The notes: generated by a model from the letters alone, not told the origin. A stretch of DNA of 64,000 nucleotides from a virus (IMGVR_UViG_2630968701_000002); one strand, 5' to 3'. Positions 7,514 through 62,443 are shown, counted from the stretch's first letter. Numbers and translations are program-made.

Positions 7514-7544
7514 GGTTATATCCTGTGAAGCCTCACACGACTAA

Positions 7545-7800
7545 AGTCGCGTGCTTCCCCTTAAGTATGTATATACATACGTAGTCTCTTTAGGAGACGG
7601 GGACTTCATTTCTACAGATACAGCCAAAACTCAGAATTCTTATGACACGAAGGACATAAGCTCCGCATTCAGGCTAATTAACGTAGACCATGTGCAGGTG
7701 CTTCTCTTACTGCATGGAGGAACTTTTGCCTCCATGAGCAACCTCTCATTCTCAGGCAAGGATTTTAAGATCTCCCGGATAAAATACCGGGCTCCGATGT
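7545..7800 (-). ncRNA. candidate TnpB omega/right-end RNA overlapping the tnpB 3' end and the RE
   Basis: Established knowledge: the TnpB guide RNA derives from the 3' end of tnpB plus the RE. This stretch is GC-rich with hairpin-forming segments (cacgactaaagtcgcgtg). Confidence 0.4.
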
Positions 7801-8981
7801 TATAAGATGCGGAAAGATCGCAGTTGTAGACTTTTCCGTTCTGGAACTGGCAGACACTGTAAGATGAAAATCCTGCATGTTTTCCGCGCAGGACTCGTCC
7901 ACTTCCATCATAAGCCAGTCTGGAAGTGTTCCAGGCGCAGATCCGGGCAATATGCATTCCCAGACGATGCGCTTTATCCGTTACGACCCTCTGGACTTCC
8001 TGACTCTTCCACAGGTGCAGCCGCTGTTTTCTGGAACCGCGTTTCTTTCCTTTCTTTTCTAAATATTCAAAGACGATGGCGTCTGCGTTGTAAAGGACTG
8101 CGATATCCATGATAAACTTTGCAGTTTTGACAGAGATTTCATGATTGATCCCGTTCACTTTTGCCCATAACCTCGGCATCTTGCGGTTTCCATGCTGTTG
8201 TGCTTTCTTGATCCGGTTGATGCTGTGCGTCAGACAGTCTTGTTCCTTTGGAAGTTTTAAAAAATGCCTTCCAAGGATAGTGCCGTCACTACGCATCACA
8301 CTGATCGTTGCAGCAGCGTTGATTCCAAGATCGACCGCACAGATGATCCGGTCCGCAACGTCTGTATCACATAATTCGATATATTCTTTCATAGGAAAAT
8401 CCAGGAACCATTCATCTCCACGCTTCTGCAGGATCGGAGAACAATGTTTCCTTGCCTTGCATCTGCGTTCGATATAATCCATGTCAGATCTTCGGAGCTT
8501 GATCGTCAGCCAGTCCCAGGTGTTGCGGATATAGACTTTGATCCTTGCTTCATATTTTCCAATCTGCTGATACATATTTCCACGATACATACATGGATAA
8601 GAGTACCCAGCTTTTGGAAAGGAAGGCTTTCTTCCACGGATCTTTGGATCTTCTTCTTTCCAGTTTTTCAGATTACTTTTATAAGAAGAGACCTTGCCGA
8701 TCGCTTCATTGATCGCACTCCTTGCGAAGATAGCTTGGAAGTTTATAGAACTTCCGATCAAATGACTCATATGGCACTTCTGGGTTTTGCTTTGTCCTGT
8801 GACATAATCTCTCAACATAAATGACCGGGGAACATAAATAGTCTTCCTTGCGGATGTCTTCCCATTTCTGAAGACAAACCTGGATCATAAAATCGACAGC
8901 TTCCCGATACACAGATACTGTTTTTTTAAAGATATGATTGTAATTTTTAATTTTAGCACTGTATGTTGAAAATATCCGCAT
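7640..8981 (-). pseudogene. tnpB: tnpB (IS605 OrfB / RNA-guided nuclease), frameshifted copy
   Basis: Copy 2 is a single 446-aa ORF. Here the frame breaks near 8715, where ctccttgcgaag replaces copy 2's ctcctacgaag (a 1-nt indel), giving ORFs of 91 aa and 392 aa. RuvC-like motifs (AVDLG) and a C-terminal zinc finger (CQFQNGKVYNCDLSASYNIGARY) are present. Confidence 0.8.
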
Positions 8982-9147
8982 ATCGAACAGCTCCTTTCTT
9001 ATTTTTCCTCTTTCCTTAAATATGAGATTTATGAAAAAAAATATCTTTCATATATAAAAATCTTCTTCTTTGAAAGGAAACGTTACCTAACTCATGACTA
9101 AAGTCACGAGAGTGCGGTGACTGTTCTTCAAACTTATTTTTTTTTCA

Positions 9148-13401: not shown

Positions 13402-13430
13402 AATTTTTCTCCTTTACTTTTTCTCTTAAT

Positions 13431-13516
13431 CGTCATTAAATTATATTTTAAATATGAGATATAAAGCAAAAGATAAATTTCATATATAAAAAAAGAGACC
13501 AAATGGTCTCTCTTTG
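13431..13516 (-). promoter_or_regulatory. conserved intergenic cassette copy
   Basis: Plus-strand text cgtcattaaattatattttaaatatgagatataaagcaaaagataaatttcatatataaaaaaagagaccaaatggtctc. Confidence 0.6.
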
Positions 13517-14475: not shown

Positions 14476-14499
14476 AATTTTTCTCCTTATTTCTCAATT

Positions 14500-14586
14500 C
14501 GTCATTTTATTACATTGTAAGTATGAGATATAAAGAAAAAGATAAAATCCATATATAAGAAAAAGAGACCAAACGGTCTCCTTTTG
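14500..14586 (-). promoter_or_regulatory. conserved intergenic cassette copy
   Basis: Plus-strand text gtcattttattacattgtaagtatgagatataaagaaaaagataaaatccatatataagaaaaagagaccaaacggtctc. Confidence 0.6.
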
Positions 14587-14592
14587 AATTAA

Positions 14593-14824
14593 CAATTTTC
14601 TGTATTTTTAAAACCCACATTCTCGACAATTTAATTCCCTTTGCCATGATTCATTAATGAAATCATCATCAACTTCTGATTCATCTGGGTTATGATCATA
14701 TTCAAAATATAATCATCAATAGAATCGCCATTGTCATTGATTCTCTGAACTTTTGCATAATATGTAAGGAATTCTGCATCTTCTGTTTTTCAAATTACAT
14801 ATTTTACGATATACTGCGGGAATT
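14593..14824 (-). pseudogene. decayed gene remnant abutting the IscB-1 right end
   Basis: Protein-like segments in different frames (EDAEFLTYYAKVQRINDNGDSIDD / YFEYDHNPDESEVDDDFINESWQRELNCRECGF) with no start codon or RBS. Confidence 0.3.
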
Positions 14825-14872
14825 CTCGGCCATTCAATGACCGAGATGAAAGCAGGAGGCTCTTTTGAGCCA

Positions 14873-16285
14873 TCATCCCTTTCCAAGGGATCGTCTTGCT
14901 CCTATCGCCCAGTTCCCACAATGATGCAAAATCTTGAGTTTTGACAGACTGACCTGTTTGTATTTTGGAGATGTCCGGATATATTGGTCATTCTCATCTT
15001 TTACATAACAGGACTTATCAGTAAAGCCAGAGATCCATCCCTTCTTTCCATTCAACTCTACACGATCGAACAGACAGCCAGTGATCGATATCTTCTTCTT
15101 ATTCTTCCTTTTTGTAACAGTAACTGCTTTTGTGTTCTTATCATATCGTGAAGCTTTACGGTTTGGTTCCTTGCGTCCTTTTCTCGGAGTTTCCTCATGT
15201 AAAGAACGTTTCTTTCTTCGGACCTGCTGGATATAGATCACGGGTTCTTTATCCTTTACTGTCATGATCCCAGTCTTTACGATAGCGATCGCAGTCGCAT
15301 CATTTCCATGACTTTTTGGAAGTCTCAATCTCTCACGGTCTGCTTTTGTGATGTTTCCATAGGTAAACGTTGCTCCTGGGAATGCTTCTATCAGACGTTT
15401 CCGTAAGATGTTCATGAAGGTGGCATCTCTCAGTCCTCTGGTGAATTTCTTCTGCTTCTGCATCCACTGATAGAGAATGCCTCCCTGGTGATGGTTCTCT
15501 GTGTTATGGCAATCGCTGCACACCGTAGCCATATATTGTGGATCATCGGTCGCTCCATAACTCCGGTACAGGATATGGTGTACATGCAGTTTTCCGCCTT
15601 TCTTCCCACATACCTGACAAGTGTATCTGTCACGATTGAGAACATAAGCTCGGACATTTTCATAGTCATACTGTGGTCCTTTCTGGTACAGTTCTCCATG
15701 AATCTCAGGATCTTTTAATCTTGCCGGATCAAAACGGCCAAGCTCGATCGAAAGACGGTATCCCTCTGGAAGAAGATCCTGCAGCTTTTTGATCCACCGG
15801 ATATGATGATCTGTCTTTGACTGCAGCGATGGCGGAAGCCACCCTTTCGGCCGTTTGGATGTGAACGTGATCTCTTTTTTCTTCCAGTGCCTTCTCTTTC
15901 GGTCTGGAATCTCACAATAGACACGTTTGGCTTTTGGTCGCCATTTTGGATGACGGTATCTGGTCTTTCGATGACGTCTTCCTCTTCTTGAGGAAGCTCT
16001 TGACTGCATCAGTTTTCTTTTACTCATGGAATCTCTCAGACCGATCTCTTCTTTATGTAAGACTGCTCCATCTTCACGAACGACGGATACTCCGATATGC
16101 TGTGATCCAGTATCGATCCCTAGATAGCCGGATTGTGTCGTACTGCCTGTCTTATAATTCAGTTTTATGGTAAATGGGACCTTCCGATAAACAGAAGCTT
16201 TCCCATGTTTTAGCAATAAACGGGCTTTTCTCTCAGATGTAGGCATCAGCCGGCATCCGTTCAGCCCTACCACGAATACGCTCAT
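14873..16285 (-). CDS. iscB: IscB (OMEGA RNA-guided nuclease: PLMP + RuvC + HNH)
   Basis: Start MSVFVVGLNGCRLMPT (PLMP motif) with AGGAGG RBS. RuvC-I LGIDTGS. HNH CQVCGKKGGKLHVHHI...CSDCHNTENH. 471 aa. Confidence 0.8.
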   Translation of the reverse strand: MSVFVVGLNGCRLMPTSERKARLLLKHGKASVYRKVPFTIKLNYKTGSTTQSGYLGIDTGSQHIGVSVVREDGAVLHKEEIGLRDSMSKRKLMQSRASSRRGRRHRKTRYRHPKWRPKAKRVYCEIPDRKRRHWKKKEITFTSKRPKGWLPPSLQSKTDHHIRWIKKLQDLLPEGYRLSIELGRFDPARLKDPEIHGELYQKGPQYDYENVRAYVLNRDRYTCQVCGKKGGKLHVHHILYRSYGATDDPQYMATVCSDCHNTENHHQGGILYQWMQKQKKFTRGLRDATFMNILRKRLIEAFPGATFTYGNITKADRERLRLPKSHGNDATAIAIVKTGIMTVKDKEPVIYIQQVRRKKRSLHEETPRKGRKEPNRKASRYDKNTKAVTVTKRKNKKKISITGCLFDRVELNGKKGWISGFTDKSCYVKDENDQYIRTSPKYKQVSLSKLKILHHCGNWAIGARRSLGKG

Positions 16286-16590
16286 GGCTGGTCCTCCTTG
16301 TATTGTAATAGCAGGTACACAAAAGTCCTGCTCTCCCGGATGGGAGTGATCACCCTTCGACAATGTTCCAGATACTTCTTGCTTCAGGTCAGTGTTTTCT
16401 TCTCCTGAAAGACATCCGTTGCCTGAACCCTGTTCTCGGCTAGGGTACCACCGGGTCGGGTATTGATATCTGGGACGTAGCACTCAGTATCCAACAAAAA
16501 TGGATTCCCTTGCGCTGAGTCTAGTCAGCATGCCCTTTCGGGGACCATGAAATGACCTTGCACACTTCTTAGTATGTTCGGTTATTCAAT
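16286..16590 (-). ncRNA. candidate IscB omega RNA (5' of iscB)
   Basis: GC-rich, hairpin-rich 300-nt non-coding stretch between the element end and the iscB start, matching the known position of omega RNA. Confidence 0.45.
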
Positions 16591-17321
16591 GGCCGAGAAA
16601 CTGACCAATCTTTCCAATCAACTCCAATTTTCCTTAATTCTTCATGCGCAATCTTTTTCTCATCTTCTGTCAGATCATGATAATCTATTCCAATAGAAGA
16701 TAAAAGCATAATCGGACTCATGAATTTGATCATATCTTTCTTCTGAATTTTTTCTGAGATAATGCGTCGAAGAAGTTTATGATTGTTCTCCATATTTTTC
16801 AATGATTTTTCAAGATTTTCTTTGTACTTATTCGCCTGATCAACAATCTCTTGTGAATCTACATAGCAACGACAAACATCACATCGGTATGGAAACTGTA
16901 TTTTTAGCATCTGATACATTTCTTTAAATCTAGTTGATTCATACCATGTTGGAAGATAATGAAATTGTAAGATAAAATAATTCTCTAAGAAATATTTTTT
17001 TTGCACATATTCATCGCGAGTATATGACATTTCTTTCATTTCTTCGTCTGTAAAAAGCCCATCGTTTAATTCTTTGACATACAGAGTAAAAAGTTGATCA
17101 TCATCTGTAATATCATAATGTCCATATCGTTGATATTCATTTGCGTGATAAATATATCTTTTGTTTTTGAATACTAACATAGAATATCCTATATTTTGTC
17201 CAAGATTAATAAAAAAACATTCAAACCCTTTGATATTGATACTCTTTATTGCAGCTTCTTTGATTTGCTCATATGTTAACTGACAGGCATCCTTTGGATT
17301 CGTACATTCCAATATTTTCAT
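16569..17321 (-). CDS. hypothetical protein whose last ~10 codons run into the IscB-1 end hairpin
   Basis: 250-aa ORF. The C-terminal ...WSVSRPLNNRTY is encoded by ctcggccattgaataaccgaacatac, which is IS-end sequence. Confidence 0.45.
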   Translation of the reverse strand: MKILECTNPKDACQLTYEQIKEAAIKSINIKGFECFFINLGQNIGYSMLVFKNKRYIYHANEYQRYGHYDITDDDQLFTLYVKELNDGLFTDEEMKEMSYTRDEYVQKKYFLENYFILQFHYLPTWYESTRFKEMYQMLKIQFPYRCDVCRCYVDSQEIVDQANKYKENLEKSLKNMENNHKLLRRIISEKIQKKDMIKFMSPIMLLSSIGIDYHDLTEDEKKIAHEELRKIGVDWKDWSVSRPLNNRTY

Positions 17322-19583: not shown

Positions 19584-19620
19584 AATTTTTCTCCTTTCTT
19601 TTTCTTTCTTTTGCTCTATT

Positions 19621-19706
19621 CGTCATTGTATATTACGTTATAAATATGAAAGATGAAGTAAAAAATAAAAATCATATATAAAAAAGAGCTCCCGGAGGAA
19701 CTCTTT
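19621..19706 (-). promoter_or_regulatory. conserved intergenic cassette copy
   Basis: Plus-strand text cgtcattgtatattacgttataaatatgaaagatgaagtaaaaaataaaaatcatatataaaaaagagctcccggaggaactc. Confidence 0.6.
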
Positions 19707-26113: not shown

Positions 26114-26195
26114 AAATTTTCTCCTTTACTTTTCTCTCTTCGTCATTTCTTGTTACGTATTAAATATGATAGATAAGAAAAAAAATAAAATCGAT

Positions 26196-26283
26196 ATATA
26201 AGATTCTTACATTTCAAAGGAAGCTCGCATTCATCCCAGCCAAACTTTCTTTATGGATGGGGTGTTCTGCTTAAGTCAATAAA
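26196..26283 (-). repeat. solo copy of the TnpB-B element left-end hairpin region (PATE-like fragment), nested between two cassettes
   Basis: About 88% identical to 62516-62600 (gattcttacatttcaaaggaagctcgcat.catccc.gcc.aactttc.tt.tgga.ggggt.ttctgctta..tcaataaa). Confidence 0.5.
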
Positions 26284-37917: not shown

Positions 37918-37981
37918 AGTTTTACACTTCCTTTCTTATGTACCATTATATATTATTTTTATATGTGAAGCCTCACACGAC

Positions 37982-38240
37982 TAAAGTCGCGTGCTTCCCC
38001 TTAAGTATGTATATATATACATAGTCTCTTTAGGAGACGGGGACTTCATTTCTACAGATACAGCCAAAACTCAGAATTCTTATGACACGAAGGACATAAG
38101 CTCCGCATTCAGGCTAATTAACGTAGACCATGTGCAGGTGCTTCTCTTACTGCATGGAGGAACTTTTGCCTCCATGAGCAACCTCTCATTCTCAGGCAAG
38201 GATTTTAAGATCTCCCGGATAAAATACCGGGCTCCGATGT
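37982..38240 (-). ncRNA. candidate TnpB omega/right-end RNA
   Basis: Same reasoning as for copy 1. Confidence 0.4.
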
Positions 38241-39420
38241 TATAAGATGCGGAAAGATCGCAGTTGTAGACTTTTCCGTTCTGGAACTGGCAGACACTGT
38301 AAGATGAAAATTCTGCCTGTTTTCCGCGCAGGACTCGTCCACTCCCATCATAAGCCAGTCTGGAAGTGTTCCAGGCACAGATCCGGGCGATATGCATTCC
38401 CAGACGATGTGCTTTATCCGTTACGATCCTCTGGACTTCCTGACTCTTCCACAGGTGCAGCCGCTGTTTTCTGGAACCGCGTTTCTTTCCTTTCTTTTCT
38501 AAATATTCAAAGACGATGGCGTCTGCGTTGTAAAGGGTTGCGACATCCATGATAAACTCTGCAGTTTTGACAGAGATTTCATGATTGATCCCGTTCACTT
38601 TTGCCCATAACCTCGGCATCTTGCGGTTTCCATGCTGCTGTGCTTTCTTGATCCGGTTGATGCTGTGCGTCAGACAGTCTTGTTCCTTTGGAAGTTTCAA
38701 GAAATGTCTTCCAAGGATAGTGCCGTCACTACGCATCACACTGACCGTTGCAGCAGAGTTGATCCCAAGATCGACCGCACAGATGATCCGGTCCGCAACG
38801 TCTGTATCACATAATTCGATATATTCTTTCATAGGAAAATCCAGGAACCATTCATCTCCACGCTTCTGCAGGATCGGAGAACAATGTTTCCTTGCCTTGC
38901 ATCTGCGTTCGATATAATCCATGTCAGATCTTCGGAGCTTGATCGTCAGCCAGTCCCAGGTGTTGCGGATATAGACTTTGATCCTTGCTTCATATTTTCC
39001 AGTCTGCTGATACATATTTCCACGATACATACATGGATAAGAGTACCCAGCTTTTGGAAAGGAAGGCTTTCTTCCACGGATCTTTGGATCTTCTTCTTTC
39101 CAGTTTTTCAGATTACTTTTATAAGAAGAAACCTTCCCGATCGCATCACTGATCGCACTCCTACGAAGATAGCTTGGAAGTTTATAGAACTTCCGATCAA
39201 ATGACTCATATGACACTTCTGGGTTTCGCTTTGTCCTGTGACATAATCTCTCAACATAAATGACCGGAGAACATAAATAGTCTTCCTTGCGGATGTCTTC
39301 CCATTTCTGAAGACAAACCTGGATCATAAAATCGACAGCTTCCCGATACACAGATACTGTTTTTTTAAAGATATGATTGTAATTTTTAATTTTAGCACTG
39401 TATGTTGAAAATATCCGCAT
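38080..39420 (-). CDS. tnpB: TnpB RNA-guided nuclease (IS605 OrfB)
   Basis: 446 aa with RuvC motifs and a zinc finger. Single ORF, unlike copy 1. Confidence 0.85.
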   Translation of the reverse strand: MRIFSTYSAKIKNYNHIFKKTVSVYREAVDFMIQVCLQKWEDIRKEDYLCSPVIYVERLCHRTKRNPEVSYESFDRKFYKLPSYLRRSAISDAIGKVSSYKSNLKNWKEEDPKIRGRKPSFPKAGYSYPCMYRGNMYQQTGKYEARIKVYIRNTWDWLTIKLRRSDMDYIERRCKARKHCSPILQKRGDEWFLDFPMKEYIELCDTDVADRIICAVDLGINSAATVSVMRSDGTILGRHFLKLPKEQDCLTHSINRIKKAQQHGNRKMPRLWAKVNGINHEISVKTAEFIMDVATLYNADAIVFEYLEKKGKKRGSRKQRLHLWKSQEVQRIVTDKAHRLGMHIARICAWNTSRLAYDGSGRVLRGKQAEFSSYSVCQFQNGKVYNCDLSASYNIGARYFIREILKSLPENERLLMEAKVPPCSKRSTCTWSTLISLNAELMSFVS

Positions 39421-39675
39421 ATCGAACAGCTCCTTTCTTATTTTTCCTCTTTCCTTAAATATGAGATTTATGAAAAAAGATATCTTTCATATATAAAAAT
39501 CTTCTTTAAAAGGAAGCGTTACCTAACTCATGACTAAAGTCACGAGAGTGCGGTAAATGCTCTTCAAAAAAGTATTTCTTGCATTTTCGAAAAATAGTGA
39601 TATACTTAATTCATGGATTAACATCCTGGAAGACATCCTTATTACATAATATACAAGTCTTCCTATATACTCCCC

Positions 39676-43975: not shown

Positions 43976-43998
43976 CTCGGTCATTGAATGGCCGAGGA
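43976..43998. repeat. solo palindromic hairpin identical to the IscB-1 end hairpin (inverted)
   Basis: ctcggtcattgaatggccgagg is the reverse complement of 14825-14845. Confidence 0.5.
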
Positions 43999-44013
43999 TT
44001 CCCGCTTTTTATC

Positions 44014-44139
44014 CTAAAATGGACGCATAAGAATATAAGCAGCAATTATAATTATTAGATTTGCACCAACAAAAGCTCCCACAAAAAAAGCAATACCAAC
44101 AACAATATAAAATATGGTTTCAAACACATCTTTAAACAT
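44014..44139 (-). CDS. small hydrophobic protein (41 aa)
   Basis: MFKDVFETIFYIVVGIAFFVGAFVGANLIIIIAAYILMRPF. Weak RBS. Confidence 0.25.
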   Translation of the reverse strand: MFKDVFETIFYIVVGIAFFVGAFVGANLIIIIAAYILMRPF

Positions 44140-46774: not shown

Positions 46775-47707
46775 TTACACAAAATCCCAAATGCTGTTAT
46801 CCGCAGTACTTTTAATTATTTGTGAAGCTCTATCTACTGTTCTTGGAGTTTCAATCGCTTTTGATTCATGTCTTTCCTTTTTTGGACTTTCCTTTTTTTG
46901 ATATTCTGTCCAGCCACTTACATGATCGCAATCTTTCATGTTCATTAATTGAAAGCAAAGTAACTCTGTAAGAATGTCATAACTGTCATTGAACGTAGGA
47001 ATTTTAACGAATAAAACAGTTGTCTGGTCTTTCATCTGATCTAATTCTAGATCATCAGTACTCGTTAATTGTTCAATCATAGGAAGATCAAAAATGGATA
47101 ATTTTGCAGCAAGAGATGCTAAGATACGTCTTTGGTCTTTCCAATGATTGACTTGAAATACTTTCCATTGCTTTACAGCAATATGATCCATACTCTTCTT
47201 TTCCAGATTAAAAAAAAGATCATCTAAATAATGGTAGGTATTCATATCTATATCATTCATCTGAGCATGCAGCATCTTCATAATAGAAGCAAAATTTTGT
47301 TCTTTCTTTGGGCGCTCCATTTTTATATAACAGAGTAAGGCTGTTAACAGCGCAATTTCTGCTCTAGTCATAAATGTTTCTTCATTATTATTTCCCAATT
47401 TATTGATCAGATATCTCGCATAAGACATTGCTTCTGCTTCATTCCTACAATAATACAGAGGATTGTAATGATTCTCTTCTTTCATCTGCACAAGATCAAG
47501 AACTTTTACTTTATATTCTTCTTTTTTAAAACCTGCAGCAGTATGTCTCATGATTTTCCCATTTGGATCATAAATAACAAAACTTTTGCCAATCTGCAAT
47601 ACCCTGTTTTTTTCTTTTATCATTTGTTCCATTGCATCTTCTGCAGAAACAGCTTCATTTGTTATTCCTGCAGCTAATATTTTTTTCATAAATTTTTCTT
47701 GATTCAT
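46775..47707 (-). CDS. hypothetical protein
   Basis: About 310-aa ORF. Confidence 0.45.
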   Translation of the reverse strand: MNQEKFMKKILAAGITNEAVSAEDAMEQMIKEKNRVLQIGKSFVIYDPNGKIMRHTAAGFKKEEYKVKVLDLVQMKEENHYNPLYYCRNEAEAMSYARYLINKLGNNNEETFMTRAEIALLTALLCYIKMERPKKEQNFASIMKMLHAQMNDIDMNTYHYLDDLFFNLEKKSMDHIAVKQWKVFQVNHWKDQRRILASLAAKLSIFDLPMIEQLTSTDDLELDQMKDQTTVLFVKIPTFNDSYDILTELLCFQLMNMKDCDHVSGWTEYQKKESPKKERHESKAIETPRTVDRASQIIKSTADNSIWDFV

Positions 47708-48015
47708 TTTTATCAATTCCTTTCTGTTTTTGTTTTTCTACTCAAATGATATCGAAACCCAGGCGAATTAACCACCATATATTAACATTTTTTCAAATTT
47801 ATTTTTAAACTGATTTTTGATGTTACACATAATTATTTTGTGTGTAATACCAATTTTTCTTTTTATTTATACATTCAGTTCAATTCATCCATTATATAAA
47901 GACATAAAAATATTTGGTATTGCCATTATTTTTTTTATGTTTCACTTTAAATATGAGAGATTTGAAAGAAAAAATATCCATACAAAAAAAAGGACCATCT
48001 CTGGTCCCTTAAAAA

Positions 48016-49259: not shown

Positions 49260-49500
49260 AGTGTCAATCAGGTAATAGTTCTTTTTCTCCCTGTTGAACC
49301 AGTAATGGTTGCTTCATAAATAGTCTGTTCCCCTGACATGGAAGTTAGCTTCAAACCGGCTGGCTGTTTGCTTAAGTACATGGACTACCATCTAGCAGTG
49401 TGGTTTCGCATCTGTCCATCTTAAGCTGGATTCTTATATGCGAGGGTGTCGATGCTCCATGATCATGGGTTTTACCAAGCCGATTGAACACTTTAATCTA
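49260..49500 (+). ncRNA. candidate IS110 bridge RNA in the 5' non-coding leader
   Basis: About 250-nt structured, GC-rich, ORF-free segment immediately upstream of the transposase. Bridge RNAs of IS110-group elements are known to sit in this position. Confidence 0.35.
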
Positions 49501-49521
49501 CAACGAAAGAAGGTGATTACA

Positions 49522-50748
49522 ATGAACACACTTTACGTCGGTATTGATGTAAGCAGCAAATCCAATGTCATTTACTTAATGCTTCCAAATGGTGATAAGC
49601 ACAGTAATTTTTCTGTTGCAAACTCACACGAAGGTTCCACCCAGTTGGTAAAAAGAATTCTTTCTGCTTTAACTTCACATTCCCTTGACACGGTTCTAAT
49701 CGGTCTTGAAGCAACCTCTGTTTATGGAGACAATCTCGTGTACTTCTTAAGAGAAGATGCCACTCTGGCGCCGTTTAACAGAAAGATTCATGTCCTCAAT
49801 CCTAAGCAGGTCAAAAAGTTTCATGACGCTTATAATGACCTTCCAAAGAATGATTATGTGGACTCTTTTGTTATTGCCGACTGCCTGCGTTTCGGTAGAA
49901 TCAACAAAGAGGTATATATGGGAGACTATCGTTACAAAGCTCTCCAGAACCTCACTCGGGCACGTTTCTTCGCTGTTCAAAATCTGGTAAAAGAAAAGCA
50001 GCGATTTATGAATGTGCTGTTCAAGAAGTATTCTACGATGACGCAGGAGAAGGTCTTCAGCGATACCTTCAGCACTACCGCCCTTGCTGTCTACGATGAA
50101 TTTGAATCCGCAGAAGCACTGGCAAATATGGACTTACATGAGCTTACTGACTTTATCATTGAAAAAGGAAAGAATCGTTTTCCTGATCCTGATGCAGTAG
50201 CCAAAGCCATACAGAAAGCTGCCCGCAGTTCTTACCGTTTACCAAAAACGGTAAATGATTCTGTCAATCAGGTGCTTTCCATATCCATAACCTCCATGAA
50301 GGCATTGGAATCTCAAATAAAAGAGTTCGATAAAGCTATTAAAGCCCAAATGGAACTCTTGCCAAACGTATTGATATCCATTCCGGGTATCGGACCTGTT
50401 TATTCAGCCGGAATCATGGCTGAAATCGGCGATATCAATCGTTTTAACAGTCAGGCTGCTCTTGCTAAATATGCAGGACTTGCCTGGAAGCAACACCAGT
50501 CCGGTGGCTTCGAGTCCGAAGTTACACGGCTCATTCCATCCGGCAACCGATTTTTAAAGTACTATCTGTGTGAAGCTGCATTTTCTCTTGTAAGATGCGA
50601 CAAGGAATACAGCGACTTCTACCGCCTCAAATATAAAGAGGTAAACAGATGCCAACACAAACGTGCACTCGCATTAACTGCCCGTAAATTTGTGCGCTTA
50701 GTCTTTCGACTGCTGAAAGACAATCGCCTATACTGTCCAGCAAAGTAG
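49522..50748 (+). CDS. IS110-family transposase (DEDD)
   Basis: MNTLYVGIDVSSKS at the N-terminus. C-terminal IPGIGPVYSAGIMAEIGDINRFNSQAALAKYAGL. AAGGTG RBS. Confidence 0.85.
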   Translation: MNTLYVGIDVSSKSNVIYLMLPNGDKHSNFSVANSHEGSTQLVKRILSALTSHSLDTVLIGLEATSVYGDNLVYFLREDATLAPFNRKIHVLNPKQVKKFHDAYNDLPKNDYVDSFVIADCLRFGRINKEVYMGDYRYKALQNLTRARFFAVQNLVKEKQRFMNVLFKKYSTMTQEKVFSDTFSTTALAVYDEFESAEALANMDLHELTDFIIEKGKNRFPDPDAVAKAIQKAARSSYRLPKTVNDSVNQVLSISITSMKALESQIKEFDKAIKAQMELLPNVLISIPGIGPVYSAGIMAEIGDINRFNSQAALAKYAGLAWKQHQSGGFESEVTRLIPSGNRFLKYYLCEAAFSLVRCDKEYSDFYRLKYKEVNRCQHKRALALTARKFVRLVFRLLKDNRLYCPAK

Positions 50749-54768: not shown

Positions 54769-56292
54769 TTATGACACAAAGACCAGACCCTGATTGTGAA
54801 CAACGATCTTGCATTTCTTTGCAGGGAAATCCTTGTCTCTCATTCCAACCGCCTGAAGATATTGTCCATTGCTATGCTGTCCACGCATGACATATCGAAC
54901 GCCTTGATAATAAAAGACAGCTCCTGGCATGAGACGATCCAGACGATTGTAACGCCGGATACTTTTCTTGACTTTTAACTGACTGATCATTTTTCTGGTC
55001 TGTTCTTCTCCATATCTCTCAACCTGTCGTTTTCTCCATCCCTGAAGAGAATCGTCCTTTTGTCCTTCCGCTTTTTTGCGGTTCTTGGCAATTTTCTTTC
55101 CTTCATGATAGTATGCACGAGAGGTCTGAGCTTTGATCCGGCTGCGATCCTGTCTGCGGAATTGCAGGATCTCATGCACATGATCGAACTCTGGGGCTTT
55201 CTCTGGGACATGCTGTAAAGCAAGAACTGCGATACACCAGGCATCGACCTCATGCAGCTGCTCTTCTTTTGTCTTATGATATCCAAGGGATCTTCGGACC
55301 ATGGAGGTATCTCGTCCAGAACAGTAATGAACATGTTCCTTCCCGAATTCCTGTTCCAGTCGTTTGCAGATAAATGGAATCGCCTGATTTAAGACACTGA
55401 CCGCTGCATAACGTTTGTTCAGCCCAGCTTTCTTTTTCTTCAGACGGTCCTCAAATCTTGCATCTTTATGGACTCTCTCATGACATTTGCAGCATAATCC
55501 TGCGATGTTTCCGATCGTGTTGGACCCTTGCATACTCCGTGGTACGATATGATGCCGGTGCTCGATCGGACTGTTACACATTAAACAGTGCCCATCCTGC
55601 AGATCTTCAATGGCTACGTTCAAGTCATCATAACCCTTTAACGGTCCATTCTGGAAATCGACACCACTGATGCTCGGATCTTCCAGAGATAGAAAAGCGA
55701 ACCGGTTGATCTCGATCGCGACATCGGTGATCGGCAGGAATTTCTGCATTTTATGGATCAGATTGATGTGTGTCCGCACCAGATGTTCCGCACTTGGTGT
55801 CAGCCATCCATCTTCTCGTTTTCGATTGCAAAACTTGGCTTCTGTGTTCTTGATCACATTGCATCGTACTCGTTTATCTTTTCCATACATCGGAAGTTTT
55901 CGCATCAGGAATCCAGTCTTGATCATCGTATGACATTTCTTGGCTAGTCGCTGTCTTGCCTTTCGTTCTCCATTTCTGGAAGCTCTGCGATGCTGCTTTC
56001 GTTTTTCCATCAGTTTAACGATCTCTTTATTTCTCGTTTGCACAACCGCTGCGGATAATAGTTCTCCACTCAGAGATACCACGGCCATTCCAATATTAGA
56101 ACGTCCAGGATCTTCTGCGATCGTGACTGGCTGCAAGACTGGTTTGTTTTCATAAGTTAACTGTATCGTAAAAGGGATCTGCCGGAAGACGCGTGCTCTT
56201 CCTGCCTGTAACAGTTTTTCGACATGTCTCTTTCGTTTTGTAGGCATCTGTGGATCTCCATCCATGCCTAAGACATAAATATATTCTGACAT
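54769..56292 (-). CDS. iscB: IscB (OMEGA RNA-guided nuclease)
   Basis: Start MSEYIYVLGMDGDPQMPT (PLMP-type) with GGAGG RBS. RuvC-I EDPGRSNIGMAVV. HNH CLMCNSPIEHRHHIVP...CCKCHERVH. 507 aa. Confidence 0.8.
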   Translation of the reverse strand: MSEYIYVLGMDGDPQMPTKRKRHVEKLLQAGRARVFRQIPFTIQLTYENKPVLQPVTIAEDPGRSNIGMAVVSLSGELLSAAVVQTRNKEIVKLMEKRKQHRRASRNGERKARQRLAKKCHTMIKTGFLMRKLPMYGKDKRVRCNVIKNTEAKFCNRKREDGWLTPSAEHLVRTHINLIHKMQKFLPITDVAIEINRFAFLSLEDPSISGVDFQNGPLKGYDDLNVAIEDLQDGHCLMCNSPIEHRHHIVPRSMQGSNTIGNIAGLCCKCHERVHKDARFEDRLKKKKAGLNKRYAAVSVLNQAIPFICKRLEQEFGKEHVHYCSGRDTSMVRRSLGYHKTKEEQLHEVDAWCIAVLALQHVPEKAPEFDHVHEILQFRRQDRSRIKAQTSRAYYHEGKKIAKNRKKAEGQKDDSLQGWRKRQVERYGEEQTRKMISQLKVKKSIRRYNRLDRLMPGAVFYYQGVRYVMRGQHSNGQYLQAVGMRDKDFPAKKCKIVVHNQGLVFVS

Positions 56293-56520
56293 CCTTGATG
56301 CCTCCTTTCTTTTTTTTGGTGTCATGTAGTCTCTCAGGGATCAACGGGATCCCCGCCTCGGTGGTAAGCCTGTACATGACGAATTTTTGGTCTTCTTAAA
56401 CTTGGTGTCAGCTTGACAAGGTCTGGAACTAGAGAATCCCAGAGTGTCCACTTTCCAAAGAAGATCGCTGACATCTTGTTTCTGCTCATTAACGCACTAA
56501 CTAATTCACAAAACTTCTGC
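56293..56520 (-). ncRNA. candidate IscB-2 omega RNA
   Basis: GC-rich, structured 230-nt non-coding region between the element end and the iscB start. Confidence 0.4.
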
Positions 56521-60974: not shown

Positions 60975-61100
60975 CCCTATGGAAGGGGTTTCCAGTAGTC
61001 GTGACAGTTACCCATCTCTGACGAAATATTTCGAAAAAAAAACACCTCGCTGTCCGTACCAACTGAGGCTGGCTCACGCAACCCCTATCTCTTTTACGAG
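60975..61100 (-). ncRNA. candidate TnpB-B omega/right-end RNA
   Basis: GC-rich structured segment directly downstream of the tnpB stop. Confidence 0.35.
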
Positions 61101-62443
61101 AATACTTGTATAACTTTGATATTCTGCAAGAAAGAAAAGTCCGTGATCTTTGAGAAAGTCTCTGGAAATTTCTTTCTTAAGATATTTCCTGCGCCGATCA
61201 GATCTGCATTGAATAGGTTCCCTTCCTTATTCTGATAGAGTCCACGTTTGACTCTTGTTCCGGAAAACTTTGCCTTTTCATCATCCACTCCATACGTTGG
61301 AATATGATCTCCTGCAGTCAGATCCGCTTTTGACGTATAGCTTTCTTCCTGACTGATCACTTCGATCCCGACACGCTCTGCCTTGTACTCGATCATCTTT
61401 CGCAGCTGATAGAATGGCATCTGGACAAAGGACTGTGTATTTTTTCCAAGCTCAATACTCTGTTTCCATTGCTCATTGACTCCGATCACGATCGTAGTGA
61501 TCCCGTGAGACATACATTCCTGAACGATCCTGGAACTGATCTTGTGCATCGCATCGTGGAAGAACAGATCTCTCTTCTGATGCAATCTTCGCATCTGTTT
61601 TGTGTTCAACAATCCCATTTTTGCTGCTTCTTTCGGGTCATGTCCTTTCATTGCGATCGACCGAAGCCTTGCAAGCTGTTTGTTGTACCACTGGTTCTTT
61701 TCTTTGAGCACACCGCCTTTGTACAGCCAGCAATCTCCCTTGCTGCTCACGATGGCTGCGATGTTCTCAACACCAAGATCAATGGCACAGACCCCGGATC
61801 CCTTCACTTTTTCTTCCGGATCTGGGCATTCAAACGTGCAGGCCAATAACAGATCTCCGTAATATGGTTTTACTTTGACTTCCTTTAATCGTCCTTCCGG
61901 TCGATACGGCAGATGGATCGTTTCGTTTGTAAGAGCGAACCGCAGGATATCTCCTTCTTTGATCTTGCAGCCCTGATTGGAAAAAGTGATCGTGGAGATC
62001 GAACGCTTCTTCTTATAGTGTGGCATTTTCGGTTTTCCCAGATACTTTTCCGGATGCTTCTTATATTTTCTCAAAGAAGCTAACCAGCTGCGAAAATCAT
62101 GGACCGCTGCTTTCTGACATTCTTCTGCCGTCTGGGATGGAAGCCCTGCAAAGAAATCAGGATTATCCATCACACGCATCATCCGTTCCAGAAACTTATA
62201 ACTCAGAACAGATTTCGGACGTTTCAGGTGTGGACACAGTTCTAATGTTTCTTCGATCTCACGCTGTACTTCCAGCTCATTCTCTGTCGGATGCTCTTTC
62301 TTCCGAGAAGTAAAGTTCTGTCGGATCCGGAACAATGTCGCATTATAGAGATTGTTTGATAAGTGCATATGATGATCCAGATATTCATATAATCCGGGAT
62401 CTTTCTTCTGTTTTAATACAGTTCTTAACACTCGATATATCAT
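61094..62443 (-). CDS. tnpB: TnpB-like RNA-guided nuclease lacking the zinc-finger cysteines
   Basis: RuvC-I CAIDLGVENIA. RuvC-III NADLIGAGNI. The position normally CxxC...CxxC reads SYTSKADLTAGDHIPTYG. 449 aa. Confidence 0.7.
   Translation of the reverse strand: MIYRVLRTVLKQKKDPGLYEYLDHHMHLSNNLYNATLFRIRQNFTSRKKEHPTENELEVQREIEETLELCPHLKRPKSVLSYKFLERMMRVMDNPDFFAGLPSQTAEECQKAAVHDFRSWLASLRKYKKHPEKYLGKPKMPHYKKKRSISTITFSNQGCKIKEGDILRFALTNETIHLPYRPEGRLKEVKVKPYYGDLLLACTFECPDPEEKVKGSGVCAIDLGVENIAAIVSSKGDCWLYKGGVLKEKNQWYNKQLARLRSIAMKGHDPKEAAKMGLLNTKQMRRLHQKRDLFFHDAMHKISSRIVQECMSHGITTIVIGVNEQWKQSIELGKNTQSFVQMPFYQLRKMIEYKAERVGIEVISQEESYTSKADLTAGDHIPTYGVDDEKAKFSGTRVKRGLYQNKEGNLFNADLIGAGNILRKKFPETFSKITDFSFLQNIKVIQVFS

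What the first reader, a model, noticed from the sequence alone, without database searches (positions are those of the whole stretch)
14825..16610. IscB-1 OMEGA element with a ~300-nt candidate omega RNA, inserted into a gene
A 471-aa IscB (PLMP, split RuvC, HNH) sits inside a GC-rich block bounded by related palindromic hairpins. The 300 nt upstream of iscB are non-coding and highly structured, which is the expected omega RNA position. The upstream neighbour 16569-17321 ends with codons encoded by the IS end hairpin. A frame-decayed remnant lies just outside the other end (14593-14824). This suggests the element landed inside a gene. The guide portion of the omega RNA should correspond to the flank just outside 16610.
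Basis: partly seen in the sequence, partly recalled or inferred. Interest (0 to 1): 0.6.

Follow-up and report, generated by a model that had tools for sequence, protein, structure and literature searches.

The report
IscB guide-RNA transposon in gut bacterium
This is an ordinary but intact IscB "OMEGA" mobile element (an RNA-guided nuclease gene plus its guide RNA) inserted at the stop codon of a gene in an Anaerostipes hadrus mobile island; it did not split that gene in two, and it carries 215 bases of foreign flanking DNA.

Summary
The core observation is right. Window 14873-16285 (-) encodes a 470-aa IscB with all RuvC and HNH catalytic residues. The 320 nt upstream (16286-16605, -) are its omega RNA: a full-length HEARO match (E 1e-8, below Rfam's cut-off) and 37 of 56 base pairs with compensatory changes. 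Eighteen independent insertions of the same family fix the element at 14808-16605 (1798 nt). It starts at GTCAG and ends at ...TATC. The left flank differs at each site and is the guide. The motif after the other end is TTAA in 17 of 18 sites; this copy alone has GTAA.

The "landed inside a gene" reading is wrong. Three empty sites in related genomes read TTGATTGGAAAGATTG|TTAAAT. That is the present 16-nt guide plus the TTAA motif, at the last codon and stop of a 238-239-aa gene. The insertion changed Cys to Trp and appended 11 codons. The "remnant" (14593-14807) is absent from all empty sites and has no homologue anywhere, so it is extra DNA that came in with the element, not the other half of the neighbour.

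There is no TnpA in the window, so the element is non-autonomous. It is a new member of a known kind, of modest interest.

The parts
16606..16621 (-). Guide part of the omega RNA (5'-UUGAUUGGAAAGAUUG-3'). It is flanking host DNA: the last codons of the neighbouring gene.
   Evidence: It lies immediately 5' of the conserved GUCAG start of the scaffold. This flank differs at each of 18 insertion sites. Empty site L148 carries a perfect match followed by TTAAAT. It occurs only once in the window.
16286..16605 (-). Omega RNA scaffold. The HEARO-type match covers 16346-16605. The scaffold continues through a terminal hairpin and the iscB ribosome-binding site (AAGGAGG, 16293-16299).
   Evidence: HEARO RF02033, full model, 50.9 bits, E 1.1e-8. 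In a 22-sequence alignment, 37 of 56 pairs have compensatory changes. 95.7% of cells are paired against 29-40% when partners are slid, and 0 of 500 shuffles reach the observed value.
16577..16597 (.). Subterminal hairpin of the omega-side end. This is the transposon right end (RE) in the nomenclature of Meers et al. It doubles as the first stem-loop of the omega RNA.
   Evidence: The window copy has one weakened stem pair (CCGAA instead of CCGAG).
14873..16285 (-). iscB, 470 aa, intact.
   Evidence: Pfam RRXRR plus HNH. PDB IscB hits. D58, E181, H236/H237 and H326/D329 are invariant in a 15-sequence alignment. dN/dS is 0.05-0.12 against copies at other sites. The 536-aa ORF starting at GTG 16483 is a gene-calling artefact that runs through the omega RNA.
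14808..14872 (.). Far end of the element (transposon left end, LE, read on the + strand). It holds the hairpin 14825-14845 and the terminal GATATACTGCGGGAATT.
   Evidence: Conserved up to ...TATC in 18 independent copies. DNA fold -7.9 kcal/mol, z -2.5.
14802..14807 (.). Motif next to the LE: TTTTAC on the + strand, GTAAAA on the iscB strand. This is the position of the transposon-adjacent motif (TAM), and it is degenerate here.
   Evidence: 17 of 18 sites have TTAA[A/C/G] at this position; the window alone has GTAA.
14593..14801 (-). AT-rich stretch with ORF-like pieces in two frames. It is absent from all empty sites and of unknown origin, so it is extra DNA that entered together with the element.
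   Evidence: Junction comparison. It is present in all 22 filled loci. No homologue was found in 5.8e9 proteins, 1.84e9 representatives or IMG/VR.
14589..14592 (.). TTAA of the original target site. It contains the original TAA stop codon of the neighbouring gene.
   Evidence: Empty sites read GATTG|TTAAATTC. The window reads ...GAAAATTG|TTAATTC.
14560..14585 (-). Intrinsic terminator of the host operon, now downstream of iscB.
   Evidence: It is the same hairpin that follows the stop codon directly in the empty sites. No terminator lies between the 250-aa ORF and iscB.
16569..17321 (-). Host gene, 250 aa. Its last codon is changed from Cys to Trp and 11 IS-encoded codons are appended (SVSRPLNNRTY).
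   Evidence: P0002, P0003, P0005 and P0006 end ...DWKDC; P0004 also ends ...DWKDC.
43976..44020 (+). Solo remnant of the LE of a related element, in opposite orientation. On the gene strand it sits directly after the TAG stop of a small ORF.
   Evidence: 89% match to 14801-14845. It is fixed in 10 other contigs.

Best explanation
What it is. A non-autonomous IS200/IS605-type OMEGA element, 14808-16605 (1798 nt), that encodes an IscB RNA-guided nuclease and its omega RNA. It sits in an AT-rich island of Anaerostipes hadrus that is probably conjugative.

Shown here:
- The nuclease is intact.
- The omega RNA structure is conserved.
- The element boundaries are exact.
- The guide differs at each insertion site.
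- A TTAA motif abuts the far end.
- The pre-insertion sequence of this site is known.

Inferred from the known biology of the family (Meers et al. 2023):
- A Y1 TnpA supplied in trans excises and inserts the element as single-stranded DNA next to the TTAA motif.
- The omega RNA is transcribed by read-through from the upstream host operon, because the element sits between the ORF's stop codon and the operon terminator.
- Its 5' 16 nt pair with the flank. IscB cuts any allele where that flank is followed by TTAA, meaning the empty or excised site. Recombination with a filled copy then restores or spreads the element.

The insertion here entered at ...GATTG|TTAAAT, the last codon and stop of a 238-239-aa gene.

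The 215 nt between the target TTAA and the element end are most simply explained as former flanking DNA that moved with the element. The junction on the omega side is canonical. The canonical cleavage motif next to the other end is mutated (GTAA), and an upstream TTAA now bounds the insert.
For: - IscB domains and catalytic residues.
- Purifying selection on iscB.
- HEARO match. Matches also lie upstream of distant relatives.
- Covariation in the omega RNA.
- Eighteen independent insertion sites with identical termini, different left flanks and a TTAA right flank. Near-identical copies (98% IscB identity; L061 97.9% nt over iscB) lie at four different sites (L060, L061, L064, L112), which indicates recent mobility.
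- Empty sites L022, L036 and L148. L148 equals the perfect guide plus TTAAAT.
- Element end defined by an empty/filled pair in the 311-aa gene (L022 versus L036).
- Reading frame is continuous across the L029 and L066 junctions only if TTAA is kept as flank.
- A terminator is found only downstream of the insert.
- No TnpA in the window.
- Literature (doi 10.1101/2023.03.14.532601): the HEARO side is the RE; the TAM abuts the LE; iscB elements are rarely linked to tnpA (~1.5%); they are oriented like the upstream gene.
Against: - No expression or cleavage data exist.
- HEARO scores below Rfam's gathering threshold.
- The LE-adjacent motif of this copy is GTAA, so this copy may not be excisable or self-homing as a 1798-nt unit.
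- The copy is identical at one site in more than 20 contigs from many cohorts. That fits inheritance as well as activity.
- Truncated alleles exist in the population (P0021, 347 aa; L015, 459 aa).
- No cognate TnpA was identified. The only TnpA seen in a related strain (L012) belongs to an IS605 element with different hairpins.
- The origin of the 215 nt is inferred, not shown.
Confidence: 0.85

Rival explanations
1. The element landed in the middle of one gene, whose 5' part is 16569-17321 and whose decayed 3' part is 14593-14824.
For: The upstream ORF runs into the element end, and ORF-like sequence lies beyond the other end.
Against: Homologues of the upstream gene at 82-92% identity end ...DWKDC* at 222-238 aa, exactly at the junction. 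In these, the terminator and the 311-aa gene follow directly. No homologue extends into anything like the remnant.
Confidence: 0.02
2. The 215 nt are the 3' end of a resident gene that once lay between the 238-aa gene and the terminator. The element inserted into that gene. A one-ended TnpA event then joined the omega-side end to the nearby TTAA at the stop codon of the 238-aa gene, deleting the gene's 5' part.
For: ATTGTTAA occurs at the right junction, and ATTG occurs at the left junction. This 8-nt identity with the native gene end is not part of the repeated terminator module. The chemistry equals a normal integration half-reaction.
Against: All three empty-site lineages lack such a gene, including L148, whose upstream gene is identical in its first ~195 aa to the window's. 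No intact copy of the supposed gene exists in any database searched.
Confidence: 0.2
3. This copy is immobilised and being retained or decaying. It is a fixed passenger, or a domesticated nuclease, of the island rather than an active transposon.
For: The LE-adjacent motif is GTAA, against TTAA in 17 of 18 other sites; in GstIscB single-base TAM changes abolish cleavage. One stem pair of the omega-side hairpin is weakened. There is no TnpA in the window. The sequence is 99.5-100% identical at the same site in 21 of 22 contigs. The 250-aa fusion protein is listed in 1729 collection blocks. Truncated iscB alleles occur.
Against: The ORF and all catalytic residues are intact. The 2013-nt composite is still bounded by a TTAA on the + strand and a canonical omega-side end. 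Excision of the composite would therefore recreate guide plus TTAA. Empty alleles with a perfect target exist. Very close copies have moved recently.
Confidence: 0.3

Closest known systems
ISGst-type IscB elements of Geobacillus stearothermophilus (Meers et al. 2023, doi 10.1101/2023.03.14.532601)
   Same: A non-autonomous IS200/IS605-type element. The omega RNA (HEARO) lies upstream of iscB and is bounded by the transposon RE. The guide is the flank. An AT-rich TAM abuts the other end. The element has the same orientation as the upstream gene.
   Different: The TAM here is TTAA(A/G/C), read 3' of the protospacer, against TTCAT for GstIscB (written 5' of the LE). The host is a gut Lachnospiraceae island. 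This copy has a mutated LE-adjacent motif and 215 nt of extra DNA. No activity was tested.
OgeuIscB / omega RNA (PDB 7UTN, 7XHT, 8CSZ)
   Same: Same domain order (PLMP/RRXRR, RuvC-I, bridge helix, RuvC-II, HNH, RuvC-III) and the same catalytic residues. Alignment E 1e-33 over residues 3-360.
   Different: A distant relative. The C-terminal 110 aa (TAM-interacting region) does not align by sequence.
Rfam HEARO RNA (RF02033)
   Same: Full-length match to model positions 1-211, with the GUCA...UGAC closing stem, the first hairpin and the central multi-stem region.
   Different: It scores 50.9 bits, below the curated 83. This clade has longer insertions in two loops and an extra 3' hairpin not in the model. 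Relatives score 46-102 bits.
IS608 / ISDra2 (IS200/IS605 prototype transposition; from established knowledge)
   Same: Subterminal imperfect hairpins. No inverted terminal repeats. No target duplication at canonical copies. Insertion 3' of a short AT-rich motif, with a spacer of 17 nt between the motif and the LE hairpin.
   Different: No tnpA in the element. An extra 215 nt sits between the used target motif and the LE in this copy.

Membership tests
IscB nuclease (OMEGA, Cas9 ancestor) | N-terminal PLMP/RRXRR domain with the RuvC-I aspartate | tested here: met
   Pfam RRXRR 7e-43 over residues 3-203. The motif is RLMPT. D58 is invariant and aligns with the GIDPG motif of OgeuIscB.
IscB nuclease (OMEGA, Cas9 ancestor) | HNH domain inserted between RuvC-II and RuvC-III, with all catalytic residues present | tested here: met
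   Pfam HNH 1e-7 over residues 223-265. E181, H236/H237 and H326/D329 are invariant in 15 homologues.
IscB nuclease (OMEGA, Cas9 ancestor) | Small size without a REC lobe (about 400-500 aa) | tested here: met
   470 aa. It aligns to the 495-496-aa solved IscBs.
IscB nuclease (OMEGA, Cas9 ancestor) | RNA-guided double-strand DNA cleavage next to a TAM | not testable with these tools
   Only inferred. The guide and TAM were deduced from 18 sites and 3 empty sites.
Omega RNA / HEARO (RF02033) | Match to the covariance model at the curated gathering score | tested here: inconclusive
   50.9 bits against a threshold of 83, but E 1.1e-8 with the full model covered. Relatives score 46-102 bits.
Omega RNA / HEARO (RF02033) | Conserved secondary structure directly upstream of iscB on the same strand, with a variable 5' guide | tested here: met
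   37 of 56 pairs are compensatory. 95.7% of cells are paired against at most 40% in slid controls. The flanks 5' of GUCAG are unrelated among sites.
IS200/IS605-type transposon (non-autonomous) | Subterminal hairpins at both ends, and no terminal inverted repeats | tested here: met
   Hairpins at 14825-14845 and 16577-16597. The ends GTCAG... and ...TATC are not inverted repeats.
IS200/IS605-type transposon (non-autonomous) | Copies at many sites, each next to a conserved short motif, with no target duplication | tested here: met
   18 sites, TTAA in 17. The empty/filled pair L022/L036 shows no duplication.
IS200/IS605-type transposon (non-autonomous) | This copy's own junctions are both canonical | tested here: not met
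   The omega-side junction is canonical (ATTG|GTCAG). On the other side, 215 nt of extra DNA and a GTAA motif lie between the element end and the target TTAA.
IS200/IS605-type transposon (non-autonomous) | Y1 (HUH) TnpA available in trans | tested here: inconclusive
   None in the window. A TnpA exists in the same island of another strain (L012), but in an element with different hairpins.

The most novel reading that the evidence does not exclude
The 2013-nt insert records flank transduction by an OMEGA element. After the TTAA next to its left end mutated to GTAA, the transposase used an upstream TTAA. The IscB element then moved together with 215 nt of its former host DNA to a new canonical target. 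There the composite is again bounded by TTAA and still matches its own guide. If this is general, IS200/IS605-OMEGA elements could shuffle short host segments. The filled allele could also act as an RNA-guided drive against empty alleles of competing island variants; L148 is a perfect target.
Probability: 0.3. Interest if true: 0.45.

Novelty: new member of a known kind. Interest (0 to 1): 0.3.

Why it matters
It adds a well-delimited IscB/omega RNA family from a common human-gut butyrate producer. The boundaries are exact, and the TAM (TTAA) and the natural target are deduced. These could be useful as a compact editor candidate and as a natural case for studying homing between island variants. 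The extra 215 nt and the mutated motif are a small, testable hint about how such elements can pick up flanking DNA or become fixed. Nothing here challenges current understanding of OMEGA systems.

Tried and rejected
- No DNA match in the phage collection, in near or distant mode, or in the plasmid collection.
- No relative in one-genome-per-species GTDB contigs, by protein patterns or by a conserved omega RNA 32-mer.
- In IMG/VR the close copies of this family found (6 contigs, 28-222 kb) all sit at a single other site, L029-type, next to ardA.
- An empty site for the L029 insertion was not found in IMG/VR.
- The origin of the 215-nt stretch was sought in four ways, all negative. tblastn and blastn against all fetched loci found it only together with this element. 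IMG/VR gave nothing. The 5.8e9-protein search returned only P0129, a gene call from the same locus. A full HMMER scan of 1.84e9 representatives with the 32-aa frame gave nothing.
- Hairpins as an unrelated host repeat: rejected, with only 3 copies, all element ends. The abundant host repeats are different promoter and terminator modules.
- The 536-aa ORF from GTG 16483: rejected as an artefact. Homologues start at MSVFVVG behind a conserved AAGGAGG.
- IscB-2 (54769-56325) as a source of the solo end: rejected, at 30% identity with different ends.
- The clustered private substitutions in omega RNA positions 29-76, which look like decay, match another family member (L066). They are more likely mosaicism.

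Full report
**Observation.**
The ORF at 14873..16285 (-) is 470 aa. It matches Pfam RRXRR (7e-43) and HNH (1e-7). It also matches solved IscB structures: TbaIscB 2e-40 and OgeuIscB 1e-33 over residues 3-360. In an alignment with 14 homologues of 55-86% identity, D58 (RuvC-I), E181 (RuvC-II), H236/H237 (HNH) and H326/D329 (RuvC-III) are invariant. Against copies at other genomic sites, dN/dS is 0.05-0.12. The block from about 14800 to 16600 has 41-50% GC, in a background of roughly 23-38%, mostly near 30%.

The longer 536-aa ORF from GTG 16483 is a gene-calling artefact. All homologues start at MSVFVVG, 7 nt after a conserved AAGGAGG.

**Omega RNA.**
- Rfam HEARO matches 16346..16605 (-) over the whole model (1-211) at 50.9 bits, E 1.1e-8. 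This is below the curated 83 bits.
- Scores of 46-102 bits are found upstream of iscB in relatives of about 55% protein identity.
- I aligned 22 upstream regions: 13 close copies and 9 distant ones. RNAalifold predicts 56 pairs, of which 37 show changes on both sides that keep the pair.
- 95.7% of cells are paired, against 29-40% when partners are slid by 1-3 columns. None of 500 shuffles reaches the observed values.
- The scaffold therefore runs from GUCAG (16605) to the iscB start (16286).

**Boundaries.**
Metagenome and IMG/VR searches gave 94 copies at 18 or more independent sites. Every copy begins GTCAG(C/T)TTCTCG and ends ...CCGCAGnnTATC, with a length of 1792-1810 nt.

- The 5' flanks are unrelated between sites, as expected for a flank-derived guide.
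- The 3' flank begins TTAA[A/C/G] in 17 of 18 sites.
- TTAA is flank rather than element. First, an empty/filled pair in the 311-aa gene reads ATTAATTTAG|AACAGC in L022 and ATTAATTTAG|GATGAAAAGCGGG... in L036. Second, the reading frames at the L029 and L066 sites are continuous only when TTAA is kept.
- In window coordinates the element is 14808-16605 (1798 nt).
- In the nomenclature of Meers et al. 2023, the HEARO side is the right end and the TAM abuts the left end. The transposon top strand is therefore the window + strand, which reads TTTTAC|GATATACTGCGGGAATT-hairpin.
- The end hairpin motif occurs only three times in the window: the two ends and a solo relic at 43976-43996. Zero are expected by chance. 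It is not an unrelated host repeat.

**Where it landed.**
The window matches the Anaerostipes hadrus PEL 85 contig JYFK01000001. The same insertion is 99.5-100% identical in 21 of 22 contigs from many human-gut cohorts; one variant (L015) is 97.4%.

Homologues of the upstream gene at 82-92% identity are 222-238 aa and end ...DWKDC*. Their loci are empty sites:
- L022: GCTGATTGGAAAGATTG|TTAAATTCAAAAGGAGACC...
- L036: ...GATTGTTGAAATTC...
- L148: GTTGATTGGAAAGATTG|TTAAATTC...

In each, the operon terminator and then the 311-aa gene follow.

The window reads ...GGAAAGATTG|GTCAG... at 16606/16605 and ...GAAAATTG|TTAATTCAAAAGGAGACC at 14593/14592. The entry point was therefore the last codon and stop of the gene (GAT TG|T TAA). 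The Cys codon became Trp, and 11 IS-encoded codons were added (SVSRPLNNRTY).

The pre-insertion sequence equals the present 16-nt guide (16606-16621) followed by TTAAAT. This is exactly the target that the family's own guide and TAM logic predicts.

**The 'remnant'.**
The DNA missing from the empty sites is 14593-16605 (2013 nt), with a 4-nt ATTG ambiguity. That is 215 nt more than the element. The extra stretch (14593-14807) is AT-rich and has ORF-like pieces in two frames. It ends with GTAAAA where every other copy has TTAA.

- It is present in all filled loci and absent from all three empty lineages.
- It has no homologue in 5.8e9 proteins (the single hit, P0129, is a call from this same locus), in 1.84e9 representatives or in IMG/VR.
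- It is therefore not the tail of the neighbouring gene.

The omega-side junction is canonical, and the insert is bounded on the + strand by the target TTAA. I therefore favour co-mobilisation of former flanking DNA: the transposase cleaved at an upstream TTAA because the proper motif was mutated. This is inference.

A resident gene followed by a one-ended deletion is the main rival. The ATTGTTAA identity at the right junction fits that rival slightly better. The three empty sites and the lack of any intact copy fit it worse.

**How it most likely works.**
There is no terminator between the 250-aa ORF and iscB. The operon terminator (14585..14560, -) now follows the insert. The omega RNA and iscB are therefore probably transcribed by read-through from the upstream host operon, as Meers et al. 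infer from orientation bias. No convincing internal promoter was found.

No Y1 transposase is encoded in the window, so mobility needs TnpA in trans. The only TnpA seen in this island (L012) belongs to an IS605 element with different hairpins.

IscB with this guide should cut empty alleles such as L148, and the donor joint left by excision of the 2013-nt composite (guide plus TTAAT). It should not cut the joint left by excision of the 1798-nt core (guide plus GTAAAA), if single-base TAM changes are as harmful as in GstIscB.

**Comparison and verdict.**
This is a textbook IscB/omega RNA IS200/IS605-type element and a new family member, with an inferred TTAA TAM. The particular features are:
- insertion exactly at a stop codon, between the ORF and its terminator;
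- a short C-terminal extension of the host protein;
- a degenerate LE-adjacent motif;
- 215 nt of hitch-hiking DNA.

These are of local interest only. The 'landed inside a gene' reconstruction is wrong.

Noticed in passing
window 54769-56325 (-), with upstream 56326-~56660: A second IscB (518 aa; RRXRR 1e-40, HNH 5e-7), only 30% identical to IscB-1. Its end hairpins are different (CTCATGACTAAAGTCACGAG / CTCACGACTAAAGTCACGAG). No HEARO match at E <= 0.01 lies upstream of it.
   Followed up: partly
window 61094-62443 (-): A TnpB (449 aa; OrfB_IS605 8e-19, Cas12f1-like TNB 8e-10). The same 449-aa protein is inserted at a different place of the island in other strains (L006, L011).
   Followed up: no
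window 7524-9132 and 37964-39568: A 1.6-kb direct duplication at 97.6% identity, 30.4 kb apart. It carries a TnpB-like gene (446 aa at 38080-39420; shorter 392-aa ORF (a frame break, not a deletion, since the duplicates are nearly the same length) at 7640-8818; weak OrfB_IS605; PF27142 in the precomputed annotation).
   Followed up: partly
window 49438-50748 (+): An IS110-family transposase (436 aa), one of the few long ORFs on the + strand and the only one with an annotated function, so a fourth type of mobile element in the window.
   Followed up: no
window, 12-20 copies, e.g. 13417-13491, 14486-14560, 19609-19683, 26129-26203: Nearly every gene or operon is preceded, on the - strand, by a conserved module of about 75 nt (TTATATATGnATTTTATC...CTCATATTTAA...AATGACGA) placed just after a GAGACC-loop-GGTCTC terminator. 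It looks like an island-specific promoter and terminator cassette.
   Followed up: no
window 43976-44020 (+): A solo 45-nt left-end relic of an IscB-1-like element. It lies antisense to the host genes and, on the gene strand, directly after the TAG stop of a small membrane ORF. It is identical in 10 other contigs.
   Followed up: yes
L036 4870-4902 (end of contig): In another strain, a related element end (GATGAAAAGCGGGAATCCTCGGCCA) interrupts the 311-aa gene after codon ~18, next to TTTAG. The family is therefore active within this island.
   Followed up: partly
L003 / L019 (L003 915-2288): A third IscB type (457 aa) sits next to the SSB gene in one strain. It replaces about 1.1 kb holding two small genes and truncates both neighbours.
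   Followed up: no
L012 16000-18250: An autonomous IS605-type element (133-aa Y1 TnpA plus a 504-aa TnpB-like ORF) in the same island of another strain. Its hairpins differ (CCCACGG...CCGTGGG). However, it shares GCGGGAA before the left hairpin and sits next to TTTAG, similar to the IscB-1 family motif.
   Followed up: partly
sites listed (window, L100, L061, L096, solo relic): The TTAA/TTTAG target often overlaps a host stop codon (TAA/TAG). Several copies therefore sit exactly at ORF ends, in the sense orientation.
   Followed up: partly
L069 and L074: Contigs that combine the left flank of one insertion site (L029-type) with the right flank or end of another. These are either recombination between copies or assembly chimeras.
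   Followed up: no
window ~46775-47716 (-) and neighbours: A T4SS coupling-protein homologue (PF02534) lies near the solo relic in precomputed annotations of identical contigs. ArdA lies next to the L029-type copy. The host islands therefore look conjugative rather than phage, even though IMG/VR lists the 143-222 kb contigs that carry the L029-type copy as viral.
   Followed up: no
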